Shown here piece by piece: positions 16,181 through 22,389 of a stretch of DNA of 64,000 bases. The notes under the pieces were generated by a model, which saw only the letters and a list, made by a program, of their open reading frames with translations, ran no database searches and was not told where the DNA came from. The stretch is from Chiloscyllium plagiosum (Eukaryota). A program made the position numbers and the translations under genes. Location of the stretch: contig NC_057718.1 in assembly GCF_004010195.1 (NCBI RefSeq), positions 70,961,790 through 71,025,789 of the forward strand. Direction: 5' to 3'. Numbering within the stretch: position 1 is the first letter of the stretch; each line of letters opens with the position of its first letter.

Positions 16181-17625
16181 CACATACAGCCTCCAACCTC
16201 ATAGTCCAGGAACCCTGCACCACCTGGATCTACTGCCTTCCTAAAATTAACAAACCTGAGTGCCCCGGTTGACCCATCATCTCATCCTGCTCCTGTCCCA
16301 CCGAACTCATCTCTGTATGCCTTGACACTGTCCTGTCCCTCTTGGTCCAGAAACTCCCCATCTATGTCTGCAACACCACCCAAGCTCTCCACCTCCTCCA
16401 TGACTTTTGTTTCCTGGCACCCAATGCCTCATCTTCACCGTGGACATCCATGGACCATACACATCCATTCGCCATGATGAAGGCCTCCAAGGCCCCTGTT
16501 TCATCTTCTCACGACTGGTTCTCACTCAACAATTTCTCTTTTGTAACCTCCTACATCCTCCAGACCAAAAGGGCACCCACATGGGCCACAGCTATGCCTG
16601 CTTCTTTGTCGGGTATGTGGAACAGTCCACCTTCCACAGATGGCATAAATCTCCAACTTTTCCTCCAATACATTGATGACTCTATCGGCGCCACCTTGTG
16701 AACCCATGAGCAAGTTGAACAGATCATCAACTTCACAAACACCTTCCACCTCGAGTTCAAGTTCACCTTTGACATCTCCCTCCCCTTCCTGGACCTCTCC
16801 ATCTCAATTTCTGGCAATCGACTTAACATGGACATCCACTACAAACCTACCAACTCCTGCAACTACCTGGACTACACCTCCTCCCACCCTGCCACCTATA
16901 AAAATGCTATCCCTTGTTCCCAATTCCTCCGCCTCTGTCACATCTGCCCCCAGGAGGATCAATTCCACTATAGAACATCCCAGATGGCTTCCTTATTCAA
17001 AGACTGCAATTTTCCCTCCCACGTGGTCGACAATGTCTTCCAGTATCTCCTCCACTTCCTGCATCTCTGCCCTTGAACCCCACCCCTCCAATCGCAACAA
17101 GAACAGAGAATATCTCTGCAACGCATGCACCAAGCAACCCCACCACCCTGTCGTTGAACACTTTAACTCCACCTCCCACTCCACCAATGACATGCAAATT
17201 CTAGGCCTCCTCTACTGCCAAACCCTAACCACTCAACGCCTGGAGGAAGAACGCCTCATCTTCTGCCTTGGGACCCTCCAAGCACAAAGAATCAATGTAG
17301 ATTTCATTAATTTCCTCATTTCCCCATCCCCACCATATCCCACATCCAACCTTCCAACATGACACCGTCCTGTTGAACTGTCCTACTTGTCCATCTTCTA
17401 GCCCACCTATCCACTCCACCCTCCTCTCCAGCCTATCATCCCCACCTTCATCTACTTATCGCATTCCCAGCTACCTTACCCCCAGCCCCAACCCCTTCCA
17501 TTTATTTCTCAGTCCCCTTGGGCCGCAAGCCTCAGTCCTGGTGAAAAGCTCATGCTCAAAACATCTACTCTCCTGCTGCTTGGATGCTGCCTGACCGCCA
17601 TGCTTTTGCAGCACCACATTCTTCA
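16181..17625 (+). mobile_element. Penelope-like element, C-terminal half (RT, GIY-YIG, pLTR)
   Basis: TASNLIVQEP..LPKINKP, LQTKRAPTW / GTHMGHSYA, QYIDD, DIHYKPT, HPVVEHFNS and RLEEERLIFCLGTLQ. Confidence 0.88.
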
Positions 17626-19139
17626 AAGCCAAACAGTCTGCAGTGTTCATAAGTAAGAAAGAGACAGAGGAAAACTGACTCTCTACAAGTTCACTGAACC
17701 TTGTAGAAGGGTTAGCTCTGTGGTCTGGTTTGAATGCACTTTTGTTTGCTGGTTGCTAAATGTCATCTTGTACAATTTGTGTTTTTGTTCCCTGGAGCTT
17801 AGGATGGTTTGAAATTAGTTTGCATTATGGTGATTTAAAAATGTGGTGTGCCTGTGTAAACATCTATGGTTAATGTAATGGCTGCTTGACAAAATAAGAG
17901 TGGTTATGCAAAGCAGAGATCTGCAACGAAACGTTGATTTAAAAGGTTGGTTCATAAAGCTGGTAAAAACTTGCCTGTTAGAATAGGTTCTGTGTTGTAT
18001 TTGGGCTTTGGTAAATTTTAATTTCAGAATTCATGTTTGGAATTTCATTTTCTGGCCAGAATGGATTTCCAAACACTTTTTTATAGATATTTTTTATTAA
18101 ACTTTTATTTCTTTACAAAAACCATAAAAAATGGAAGATAAGTTACAACACCAGCAAACATTATTCTATATAAATGTAACAATGAGAAAAAAAGAAAAAA
18201 AACCCACAACAGCAATAACAATACACCCAAAACACAACTACACCCATGTGCAAAACAGACAAATCAATACAGGTAGTTATTGAACAAAAGAATAAGCAAA
18301 ACAGCTCAGCACAACAAAACATTAGCTCTCAACCTCCGAAAGCACTAAGTATTGCACATAAAATATTTGGAAATCTTCCTTGAAGGACATCAAATACACT
18401 AAATCAGAAGGCCATGGCTACACGAAAGCCCAAGTTAAAATCACTCTGCATCCAAGTAGTTCAGAAAGGGCTGCCATATCTTATAAAAAATTTCTATTTT
18501 CTGATGCACCATATTCGTGAAAATGTCCAGAGGGATATGTTCCATAATAAGCCTACACCAACCCTGTAGATCCAGGGGAGTTTCAGAAACCCAACGCATT
18601 AAAATATTTTTCATTGCGTAGAAAATGAGGATATTAAAAGGTATTTTTCCCATGAGCATCCAAACAGGGTATACTGGATAGGCCCAGGAGGACAGCGATA
18701 GCATCCATATTAACCTCAGCCCTCTAGACCCTCACTATAACCCCTGCGAAAGAACTCCAATACGTATGGAGCCTGTGGCAGGACTATAAACAATGAGTGA
18801 GAGTACCGATGTTTATCTTATACTTAGGACAAAAGGTGGATGCTCCCATCTTAAACTTTGAGAGATGGTCTGGGGCCAGATGGACCCGATGCAAAATATT
18901 CAGTTGTATGGCATGGGTCCTATGACAATCAATATTTTTCTCACATTCTCGCAAATATTCCCCCATGCATCCATAGAAATATCAACACCTAATTCCCTCT
19001 CCCAACTCCCGCAAAGCCGCTCAATGTCTTCCCCAGCATATGATAAAGCATTCTATTAGAGAGAGTACTTTTAATATAAAGTACCGTCTTCTCTAAAGTA
19101 CAGAGGTTAGACCTACTTTAGAGAAGAGGGTACTTTATA

Positions 19140-19276
19140 CTAAGCCCTTCCTGAAGAAGGGCTTATGCCCGAAACGTCGATTCTCCTGCTCATCGGATGC
19201 TGCCTGGCCTTCTGTGTTTTTCCAGCACCACATTTTTCAACTCTGGTCTCCAGCATCTGCAGTCCTCACTTTCTCC
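19140..19276 (+). mobile_element. Solo PLE pLTR with an intact hammerhead core
   Basis: CTGAAGA-AGGGC-TTAT-GCCC-GAAA-CGTC at 19151-19178. Direct repeat TACAGAGGTTAG at 19099-19110 and 19277-19288. Confidence 0.8.
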
Positions 19277-19612: not shown

Positions 19613-20214
19613 TACCTTTAGTCATGCTTTTTTGATAAAACAAACTTTACAAAAGAAATTATGTAGGATATCTAGGTTCAAAAACTCTTTAAAGATCAAA
19701 TTATCATAGAAATGACTTAAGTGGGAAGGCAAGAGTGCTGCTTTGCCTGAAACGAGATGCAGATCACCGCCATCTTGGATCCCCCCCAAATACTGTTTTA
19801 ACACATGAGTGAATCTTTAACTTTGGATGATACAATTTGCTTATTGCAAAGGTACTTTGATGTGAAAGAGTACAAATAATAAGAAATTTGGAATCTTGGA
19901 AATGCAATTTTCTTTGAACAAAATTCTGTTGGTAAAATCTGAGAAAGCTGATAGAAGAATTAGGAAAAGCAAAGTTAACAGAGGTGGTTTTTTTCTTAAT
20001 GTGTGATATTTATTTTCTTGCAGGAGGAGATGCAATGGATGATGTAATTATGTGCAAGAGTTTATACCCCACCCCCTTTTTGAATCTGTCATAGATCAAT
20101 GCTAATTAACCCATTCTGCATTACATGGAATGGATTTATATTTTCTTTAGAAAATTTGAGTCCATGTATGATGTTATCTTACTGCTACTGGGTGAAGTAA
20201 TCTGTGGATAGAGA

Positions 20215-22325
20215 ATTCGAGAACTAAAAAACACAAATTAAGAAAGTACTCAATTGGGCTATGAAGGCAGAAAATAACCAAGTACAGCAGCAGTTAGTAC
20301 AGGGGAGTGTGTTTTGTGTGCAATAAAGATAGCATTTCACCAATAATTGTATTGTAACACCATTAAGTTTGGGAACTGAGGAAAAAGAGACTGTTGCTCT
20401 TTCGGAGGAGGCAGGCATGGAGAGGGACATAGACAGAATCAGGGAAATCCCCATGCAGTTGCAAGTGGCAACAGATAGTAATGCAAGGCAGACTAGCATT
20501 CCACCAGAAAGGAAATTTGAAAATAAAATTACTATTAAAGGAGTAAGAGAAGTTTTAGGATAATTTAACAATTACAGGAACTTTGTAAATGTTACAGCAA
20601 ACTAGCTGGACCCCCTGCAAGACCTGTCCAAACGGCACAGGAGGTGGGGGGAGGTTGTCATGGTTGGGTCAGAGAAGATTGAATGGGGACCTGAGCAGGA
20701 GACAGCTTGTGCCTAGATCAGACACACACTGGCCTCTTCATCAGCACTAGGACTCTCCTTCACCTCTTTTGCAGTGAAAGCAATGGTAATCAATCTGCGA
20801 GCGTGTTACAGAGACACGGGGCAAGCTCCGGCCTGTGGAATACTACTCAGGTAAAATGGATCTGGTCATAATGGGACAACACTCATGTTTTCAAGCCATC
20901 CGACGTGTGGCCTGAGCGCTAACCTCATCCCCCCCCCCTTGGCAAAACTAGGGAAGGTGATATTACACTCCACACATAATGTACTCCAGCTCTTGGAAGC
21001 TGGCAAACTGAGAGGTTTTACAGACAGTCAGCAAGCCAAATGGGAAGCCACACTGTTACCAGGGGATAAGCATAGGGAAGTTGTGCTGGTGGTGGAAAGG
21101 AATAGAAGGAGACATAACCAAATTTTGCCAGAGGTGCACTGCATGTGCACAGACAGAACCAGGGAATTAAAATTAAAATGAGCCAACAGCCCCACCCATG
21201 GAGTCCATGGGAACACATTCAAATTAACTTCATAAGATAATTCCTACAAAGTTAGAATAATAAATTCTGTCTGGTCATGGTGGACCAATTTTCCACAGAG
21301 GACTGTATCGCAACCTTCGTGGCAAAAGTATTGGCAACTGAAATAATACCCAGATGAGGGCGTTTCCCTACAACCAGACACAGGCTAGGGCCTGAAGGAA
21401 ACATGTAAACTCTTGGGAATAACACAAAAGATGTGATGTTATCTTACTGCTACTGGGTGAAGTAATCCCTACTGCCCACAGGGATTGAGTATGGTAGAGA
21501 GAATCAATAGAATGCTGAAAAGGCAGAGTAGGGTTAAATGGACCAGTCATTCTAATAGCCTAGAGGGCCATGCCCTCAAAGGATACTGCACTAACACCCT
21601 TTGAGCTCATGACAGGATGAGCAATGACAATCCCCCAGGACCTAATCATGGGGGAACAGAACTGACTAACAGTAAGGGAGTGGTCTAGGATTACTTGGAA
21701 TCCCTCTGTACTCATTTACACATACTTCGTGGACACGCACGCAACCAGCAGCTTGTCAAGGACTGTGAGTCTGAGGCAAGCCCAGGACAACAAGAACTGC
21801 CAGAGCCAGAATTAACGGTCCTGGTGAAAATAGTCCCAAGCAAGAAAGCGTTGTTCCCTAGATGAGATACACTTATTAACAAGGAACAGGTGCGCACTTA
21901 TTAATGAAAATGGAATTGGTAAATGGCACGATCCTACCCAGCTATGGGTAAATAGGGCTTAATAGTGTAACAATCCAGCCTGCTAGTCTGGTATACTGTC
22001 TCTCTCTCTCTCTCTCATTTCTCCCTCTTGCAGGTTTTAAGGGGGCCCCATCTGTGATCACCAACAAGTAGCAGGAATAGAATCCTTTACCCCAGGACAG
22101 CAGCTGGAATAGATCAACATTGCATGTAAATATGCAATGTGTTTGCGTAGTGGAGACTGTGATTAAGAATATTGTGAAAATTAGCATTAATATGAAAACA
22201 TTAATCCTCTGTGGGCTTCTCTTAATTTTGATCCCATCGGAGGCTGATAGACAAATGGAGAGGAGTGCGAACACGTTTTTATACATGTCATGGCGTTCCA
22301 TGGCCCTACAACTATCTGAGTAAAG
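20215..22325 (+). mobile_element. ERV-B: heavily deleted endogenous retrovirus (gag end, pol fragments, env start)
   Basis: Frameshifted zinc knuckle CFVCNKD.HFTNNC (20310-20350). RT thumb IKGVREVLG..YSKLAGPLQDL. Connection LRPVEYYSGKMD and TDSQQAKWEATLL. Integrase PWEHIQINF, VAKVLATEIIPR, PYCPQ..MVERINRMLK, LTPFELMTG. Env signal peptide MKTLILCGLLLILIPSEA at 22192. Confidence 0.8.
21998..22033 (+). promoter_or_regulatory. Putative env splice acceptor of ERV-B
   Basis: Long (TC)n pyrimidine tract ending TTGCAG, between the integrase end and the env ATG. Confidence 0.55.
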
Positions 22326-22389
22326 AACGCACTGCTTGCAACAGTAGTCGGCTCGCCAATGTTAAGGGCATTTAAATGGTCATTGGATA

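What the first reader, a model, noticed from the sequence alone, without database searches (positions are those of the whole stretch)
16181..22389. 6.2-kb inversion shown by three elements that rejoin across its breakpoints
Seen: (1) the PLE ORF on the minus strand ends ...LITSGALP at ~22390, and its continuation HTASNLIVQEP starts on the plus strand at ~16182. (2) The CR1 end at 16063-16180 stops at CCATATGCC, and its continuation TATCCAATGACCATTTAAATGCCCTTAA is the reverse complement of 22362-22389, as in the intact copy near 24025. (3) ERV-B env start (22192-22325, plus) and env TM (15670-16062, minus) become collinear and adjacent. The breakpoints share only a short C run. Inference: a clean end-joining inversion rather than repeat-mediated recombination; it could be polymorphic or lineage-specific.
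Basis: seen in the sequence. Interest (0 to 1): 0.7.

Follow-up and report, generated by a model that had tools for sequence, protein, structure and literature searches.

The report
Small inversion cutting two shark retroelements
A 6.2-kb stretch of dead jumping-gene DNA in what is most likely a shark genome was flipped end for end, and the two old elements it cut through still mark both break points almost to the base; it is a neat but ordinary kind of rearrangement that touches no host gene found here.

Summary
The inversion (16181-22389, 6,209 bp) is in the assembled sequence. A short CR1 is cut with no base lost or gained against an intact copy in the window. A Penelope-like element is cut between residues 262 and 265 of a shark relative's protein, with 7 bases where 6 are expected; contigs from all 4 runs laid cross that point directly. 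The breakpoints share 2 C's, no more than chance, so recombination between repeats is excluded and end-joining is most likely. Corrections: the env pieces are not an independent third witness and are not adjacent; the CR1 sits between them, most of env is absent, and 22293-22389 is CR1, including a separate 38-bp flipped piece. 'ERV-B' was not testable. No listed contig spans either junction, so an assembly error (about 9%) is not excluded and orientation in two related species is undetermined. The CR1 and Penelope insertions appear older than the split from relatives 4-5% diverged. Ordinary in kind; low interest.

The parts
16181..22389 (.). Inverted segment, 6,209 bp, made of mobile-element remains
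   Evidence: CR1 and PLE each continue in register at the opposite end; no N within 14 kb
16063..16180 (-). CR1 3' end with tail (118 bp), cut at the left breakpoint
   Evidence: 80-86% to in-window copies at 23928-24060 and 2951-3067; ends at base 24033 of the intact copy
22325..22389 (+). Middle piece of the same CR1 (65 bp), carried to the right end of the inversion
   Evidence: 25/27 to 24034-24060; 81% to 2598-2644
22293..22330 (-). Most 5' piece of the same CR1 (38 bp), separately flipped, bounded by a perfect 6-bp inverted repeat around 26 bp
   Evidence: 9 of 12 residues identical to the CR1 ORF2 end at 9441(-), directly before the residues matched by the middle piece; crossed without a break by contigs of runs X1, X3 and X12
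16181..17624 (+). 3' part of a Penelope-like element (RT core, GIY-YIG-side end, 3' tail), cut at the left breakpoint
   Evidence: P0127 265-594 and other relatives; relatives carry RVT_1 and GIY-YIG
22390..23140 (-). 5' part of the same Penelope-like element; may extend to about 23760 (not shown by alignment beyond 23139)
   Evidence: P0127 45-263, P0134 9-250; single-copy contigs in X1, X3, X5
23765..25460 (+). Second Penelope 3' fragment (23765-23922 plus 25177-25460) split by CR1 inserts; candidate inverted pseudo-LTR at the element's 5' end (inference)
   Evidence: 76-79% to 17172-17624; inverted pLTRs described in PMC3846280 (passages)
19620..22292 (+). Broken LTR-retroelement/ERV-like internal region: integrase-like remains and a 33-codon env-like start at 22192
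   Evidence: Integrase_H2C2 E 2.2e-5, 24.9 bits, cut-off 25.5; env-like start read by eye; low copy
15670..16062 (-). Env TM-like remnant outside the inversion, broken by stops and frameshifts
   Evidence: Only PDB hit of 177,635 sequences at E<=10 is syncytin-1, E 0.75; single-copy contigs in all 4 runs
19148..19613 (.). Three short, very high-copy Penelope tail fragments in mixed orientation, passengers in the inversion
   Evidence: 73-77% to the PLE 3' end; summed depth above 960,000 in each run
23928..24060 (-). Intact CR1 3' end used as the in-window reference

Best explanation
A real two-break inversion in element-derived DNA. Shown: a CR1 and a Penelope-like element are each cut and continue at the opposite breakpoint, with 0 and +1 base against intact relatives, and the breakpoints share only two C's. 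Inferred: two double-strand breaks 6.2 kb apart were repaired by non-homologous end joining with the middle piece reversed; the extra C fits fill-in of a 1-base overhang at the Penelope break. Inferred order: ERV-like element, then CR1 into its env region (with loss of most of env and a small flipped 5' piece), Penelope beside it, then the inversion. The elements are passive markers, not the cause; both breakpoints lie in repeats because nearly all of this region is repeat. No function is implied.
For: CR1 halves abut at 24033|24034 of the intact copy, unique match 25/27. PLE residue 262 ends at 22392 and 265 starts at 16186; 10 contigs in 4 of 4 runs join exactly 16186 to 22392 on opposite strands, mostly at multi-copy depth, i.e. 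other family members read straight through. Shared bases 2; 16% of 20,000 random break pairs share 2 or more. No inverted repeat at the junctions. No N gap between 1940 and 54693. Unique pieces inside and on both sides exist in independent reads at 0.4-0.7% difference in organism A.
Against: No listed contig bridges either junction with 31 letters on both sides; the longest organism-A contigs stop at 16119 and 22379/22369, inside the CR1 (2,496 joints and 489,735 pieces were not shown). The +1 base could be an older indel: the copy has 12 alignment breaks in about 1,550 bases against P0127, about a 5% chance in a 7-base window. Junction sequence alone cannot separate classical end joining from a microhomology or template-switch route.
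Confidence: 0.78

Rival explanations
1. Assembly artefact: a piece was broken out and reversed by software or curation (an off-by-one would also give the extra base), and the genome has the other order.
For: The assembly has gaps, one of 500 N, so it was scaffolded. Both junctions lie in high-copy repeats where read contigs end, and no listed contig spans them.
Against: No N at or near either junction. A graph misjoin needs shared sequence and there are only 2 bases. A chimeric read gives one junction, not a reciprocal pair; scaffold flips normally leave gaps (both from general knowledge).
Confidence: 0.09
2. Real inversion made by replication template switching or microhomology-mediated repair using the shared CC, rather than by joining of two free breaks.
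For: Two shared C's and one added C. The G-rich strand just right of the right breakpoint scores 1.48 by a G4Hunter-type measure, reached by 5.7% of window stretches. G4 and Z-DNA motifs are enriched at structural-variant breakpoints in cartilaginous fishes (PMC13320814, passages).
Against: 2-bp sharing is at chance level. The other 3 of 4 flanks are unremarkable and no canonical G4 or Z motif lies within 400 bp. No junction deletions or templated inserts of the sort reported for replication-based inversions (PMC9675761, passages).
Confidence: 0.07
3. The inversion was part of the CR1 insertion event: one faulty target-primed insertion gave the flipped 5' piece, the env loss and the 6.2-kb flip together.
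For: The 215-bp CR1 carries three anomalies: a flipped 5' piece, no target-site duplication with large loss of flanking env-like sequence, and a breakpoint. L1 insertions with local inversions and deletions are documented in human cells (10.1101/2024.12.14.628481, passages).
Against: The breakpoint lies inside the finished insert, whose halves abut to the base; in the cited cases the inversion breakpoints sit at the insertion's ends. The other breakpoint has no poly-tail or insert.
Confidence: 0.05
4. Ectopic recombination between inverted repeats at the two breakpoints.
For: Both breakpoints lie in repeats.
Against: The repeats are unrelated families; inverted similarity of the 300-bp junction regions is within shuffles (25 of 200 reach it); no junction-to-junction hit.
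Confidence: 0.01

Closest known systems
Non-recombination inversions with breakpoints inside retroelements, human-chimpanzee set (Lee et al. 2008, PMC2603318; passages)
   Same: Kilobase inversion whose breakpoints cut retroelements without an inverted homologous pair; that paper lists 63 of 252 inversions with an element at one breakpoint and one between same-direction L1s explained by two breaks and repair; it also uses the elements' own structure to tell the ancestral order.
   Different: Here the two elements are different families (CR1, Penelope-like), the host is a probable shark, and the ancestral order is read from one genome only, without an outgroup sequence.
Retrotransposon recombination-mediated inversion / TE-mediated rearrangement by homologous recombination (PMC2603318; PMC9675761; passages)
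   Same: Size range and repeats at both breakpoints.
   Different: Needs two homologous elements in opposite orientation and leaves chimeric full elements; absent here.
Staggered-break inversions of Drosophila (Ranz et al. 2007, PMC1885836; passages)
   Same: Breaks, fill-in and end joining in reversed order; the extra C would be a 1-base inverted duplication.
   Different: Those duplications are tens to thousands of bases; one base here proves little.
L1 5' inversion by twin priming (PMC4245944, PMC2912911; passages), for the 38-bp flipped CR1 piece
   Same: The most 5' part of a truncated LINE is reversed and joined to the 3' part, with short shared sequence at the joins.
   Different: This is a CR1; no target-site duplication. 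In PMC4245944 5' inversions were seen almost only with L1 in human cells, none with ZfL2-1. A later flip of the loop between the 6-bp arms fits equally.

Membership tests
Balanced (two-break) inversion | Reciprocal junctions: each flank continues at the far end of the segment on the other strand | tested here: met
   CR1 join and PLE join
Balanced (two-break) inversion | No appreciable loss or gain of sequence | tested here: met
   0 bases at the CR1 join, +1 at the PLE join
Balanced (two-break) inversion | Junctions present in reads independent of the assembly | tested here: inconclusive
   No listed contig bridges either junction; output swamped by repeat copies
Balanced (two-break) inversion | Non-inverted order seen at the orthologous locus of a relative or another haplotype | tested here: inconclusive
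   Orthologous pieces present in X5 and X12 but none bridges a junction; no genome held
Repeat-recombination inversion (RRMI / NAHR) | Homologous repeats in opposite orientation spanning both breakpoints | tested here: not met
End-joining inversion | 0-2 bp microhomology, small or no indels | tested here: met
   2 shared bases, chance level 16%; +1 base
Staggered-break inversion | Inverted duplications at the breakpoints | tested here: inconclusive
   At most one base; none longer
Penelope-like element | RT plus C-terminal GIY-YIG endonuclease in one ORF | tested here: met
   By homology: relatives P0130 and P0134 carry RVT_1 and GIY-YIG and align to both halves; the decayed copy itself gave no Pfam hit
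CR1 LINE | 3' end of ORF2 and tail matching RT-bearing CR1-type copies | tested here: inconclusive
   Matches the ORF2 end at 9441(-), next to an RVT_1 ORF at 9896-10462; the clade name CR1 is recalled, no repeat library was on hand
ERV env ('ERV-B') | Homology to retroviral env SU/TM | tested here: inconclusive
   Syncytin-1 E 0.75 only; nothing
ERV env ('ERV-B') | Assignment to a named shark ERV family | not testable with these tools
   No repeat library or host genome
Twin-priming 5' inversion (38-bp piece) | Reversed 5' piece contiguous in element coordinates with the sense 3' piece | tested here: met
   Piece ends at reference residue 20, next piece is in register from residue 21
Twin-priming 5' inversion (38-bp piece) | Target-site duplication around the whole insert | tested here: not met
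   Flanks share no duplication

The most novel reading that the evidence does not exclude
One CR1 insertion in a shark ancestor went wrong in three ways at once: twin priming reversed its 5' piece (a route reported almost only for mammalian L1), most of the target env was lost, and the same repair flipped 6.2 kb. That would extend LINE-driven local rearrangement to the CR1 clade in a germ line. The twin-priming part alone I put near 0.3; the whole chain much lower.
Probability: 0.05. Interest if true: 0.55.

Novelty: new member of a known kind. Interest (0 to 1): 0.2.

Why it matters
Little on its own: one kilobase-scale inversion in decayed mobile DNA, with no host gene found in or beside it. 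Its use is as a marker and a method example. Split elements give base-precise breakpoints and the ancestral order from a single genome, and inversions are poorly catalogued: a survey of more than 600 vertebrate assemblies set them aside as under 0.2% of calls (PMC13320814, passages). If typed in the relatives it would be a clean lineage or population marker. The small flipped CR1 piece is the more unusual detail and would matter only if it proved common.

Tried and rejected
No host genome is held, so orthologous and paralogous DNA could not be searched directly. My first protein query (16649-17359) was mostly the wrong frame of the PLE: one search found nothing, one search found 125 hits nearly all to its last 80 residues. 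The single read-laying run (23) used 88% likeness over 8.6 kb, which let in over 120,000 repeat records per run and hid the locus-specific joints; it cannot be read for or against the junctions. The joint 16186-22392 in that call is taken as other family copies, not as a non-inverted allele, because depths are mostly multi-copy and it skips the 7 junction bases; one of the two X1 contigs being this locus is not strictly excluded. Env-like pieces: no homologue among 5 candidates, no Pfam family, Atlas hits all under 0.9. Integrase-core piece: PDB hits only to unrelated proteins at E 0.07 or worse. CR1 motif in viral contigs: 0. Rfam on 14000-26000: 3 hits, all far below gathering score. Non-B DNA at breakpoints: 1 of 4 flanks marginal. 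Twin priming or an inverted pLTR of the PLE as the cause of the 6.2-kb pattern: rejected, since the halves are 4.7 kb apart with unrelated elements between and the CR1 is cut as well. Earlier scan notes: nothing on this locus. Literature listings for a shark inversion of this kind showed none by title or abstract start; not exhaustive, and no supplements were opened.
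Full report
Setting. The window is dense with mobile-element remains (self-comparison; Pfam on 17 long frames gave only RT, RNase H and zf-RVT hits). The closest named relatives of the Penelope-like protein are from Chiloscyllium punctatum, so the host is most likely a shark (inference). No host genome is held. N runs lie at 1917-1940, 54693-54837 and 62753-63252 only.

The CR1 witness. 16063-16180 is the 3' end of a short LINE copy, 80-86% like two other copies in the window; the name CR1 is recalled, no repeat library was available. 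Aligned on its own it ends at base 24033 of the intact copy; the minus strand from 22389 begins at base 24034 of that copy. That 27-mer matches 25/27 and is the only match of 21/27 or better on either strand besides the copy itself; what actually follows 16180 matches 7/27. The continuation runs to about 22325, as shown against the copy at 2598-2644, so it is 65 bp, not 28. No base is lost or gained at this join.

The Penelope witness. P0127 aligns with residues 45-263 on the minus strand from 23031 to 22389 and 259-577 on the plus strand from 16168. Without gaps, residue 262 ends at 22392 and residue 265 begins at 16186: two codons, six bases, against seven in the window. All 9 relatives examined start their plus-strand match at 16168 or 16180, 6 also match the minus strand down to 22389-22469. 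In public contigs, a joint from 16186 to 22392 on opposite strands appears in 4 of 4 runs (2, 2, 2 and 4 contigs; summed depth 8, 63, 416, 25). I read these as other copies of the family, which shows that both halves belong to one family at 88% likeness or better. The extra base is probably tied to the break but an older indel has about a 5% chance (12 alignment breaks in about 1,550 bases).

The env witness is weaker than stated. Inside the segment, integrase-like remains lie on + (Integrase_H2C2, E 2.2e-5, just under the cut-off), followed by a 33-codon env-like start at 22192. A TM-like piece lies on - outside the left breakpoint; its only PDB match is syncytin-1 at E 0.75, and searches found nothing. 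The opposite orientations fit an inversion, but the CR1 sits between the two pieces, so they report the same breakpoint. They are not adjacent parts of env: retroviral env runs to several hundred residues (recalled) and most of that is absent; no target-site duplication flanks the CR1. 22293-22330 is not env but a third CR1 piece in the opposite orientation, 9 of 12 residues identical to the ORF2 end at 9441(-) and directly upstream, in element coordinates, of the middle piece. It is bounded by perfect 6-bp inverted arms around 26 bp. 'ERV-B' could not be tested.

Mechanism. Compared in register, the breakpoint halves share two C's and nothing on the other side; 16% of 20,000 random break pairs share two or more bases; the best inverted similarity between the 300-bp junction regions is reached by 25 of 200 shuffles; repeat searches show no arm pair at the junctions. 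Ectopic recombination is therefore out. Two breaks joined in reverse order by end joining, with one base filled in, is the simplest account (inference). Non-B DNA gives no clear cause: 1 of 4 flanks is marginal, no canonical motif within 400 bp. That both breaks hit repeats is expected where nearly everything is repeat.

Is it real, and how old? Runs of organism A hold 57-67% of the sampled words, relatives B and C 10-18%. On the 8 listed pieces per run, differences from the window are 18/4974 (X1), 31/4714 (X3), 182/4446 (X5, B) and 158/3189 (X12, C). Single-copy contigs cross the CR1-tail/env-like join (X1, X3, X12; X5 by only 24 bases) and the env-like start/CR1 head including the flipped piece (X1, X3, X12), and the 5' Penelope half is in X5. 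So both insertions appear to predate these splits. No listed contig bridges either inversion junction in any of the 4 runs; contigs end inside the CR1, and 2,496 joints were not shown because my likeness setting let in repeat copies. The junctions are thus neither confirmed nor contradicted by reads, and orientation in B and C is unknown. Against an artefact: no gap nearby, no shared sequence for a misjoin, and a reciprocal pair of joins. I put an artefact at about 9%.

Comparison with what is known. Inversions that cut retroelements without an inverted homologous pair are described in the human-chimpanzee comparison: 63 of 252 had an element at one breakpoint, and one between same-direction L1s was explained by two breaks and repair (PMC2603318, passages). 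Recombination-type inversions need opposite homologous elements (PMC9675761, passages). Staggered-break inversions leave longer inverted duplications (PMC1885836, passages). LINE insertion can itself cause local inversions and deletions (10.1101/2024.12.14.628481, passages), the basis of my least likely real-event rival. For the 38-bp piece, 5' inversion was seen almost only with L1 in human cells (PMC4245944, passages; mechanism in PMC2912911, passages), while flips of the spacer between short inverted arms by template switching are a known alternative (PMC8604942, listing and abstract start only). Inverted pseudo-LTRs of Penelope elements are described in PMC3846280 (passages). No supplements were opened. 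Listings showed no report of this locus. Two earlier scan notes on this genome describe short Penelope tail copies, which fits 19148-19613; they say nothing on this inversion.

Verdict. Observation mostly right, with two witnesses rather than three and corrected coordinates. Most likely a real end-joining inversion in non-functional DNA: a new instance of a known kind. Interest 0.2.

Noticed in passing
window 22293-22330: A 38-bp CR1 piece reversed against the rest of its insert, with perfect 6-bp inverted arms around 26 bp; shared with organism C. Twin priming or a later loop flip.
   Followed up: partly
window 20169-20202 and 21434-21467: A perfect 34-bp direct repeat 1,265 bp apart inside the ERV-like region; the second copy interrupts the integrase-like frame. 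Contigs of X1, X3 and X5 end at or near it, so it is in reads. Origin unexplained.
   Followed up: partly
window 15632-15646: Contigs of organisms B and C stop matching here with 371 and 163 letters left over, while organism-A contigs run through to 15461: a further lineage difference, probably an indel.
   Followed up: no
window 20919-20949: About 31 bases absent from the organism-C contig (record 13).
   Followed up: no
window 23765-25460: Penelope 3' fragment head-to-head with the 5' end of the split element, itself split by CR1 inserts; possible inverted pseudo-LTR, 76-79% to the element's 3' end.
   Followed up: partly
window 51975-58482: A second LTR-type element: 140-bp repeats 95% alike at 51975 and 58344, RNase H and weak RT hits, gag-like frames at 56213-57811 by eye.
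   Followed up: no
window 62156-62541: 193-bp tandem duplication, 97-98% alike, close to the 500-N gap in a LINE-like element with long frames; may be an assembly artefact.
   Followed up: no
window 30412-30512 and 30879-30978: 101-bp inverted repeat, 98% alike, 366 bp apart.
   Followed up: no
window 19071-19143: Hairpin with 30-nt arms, 93% complementary, 13-nt loop; Rfam hits below threshold.
   Followed up: partly
window 2598-3067: Another copy of the same CR1 end, split by a 300-bp SINE-like repeat a few bases from where the inversion cuts the 16063 copy.
   Followed up: partly
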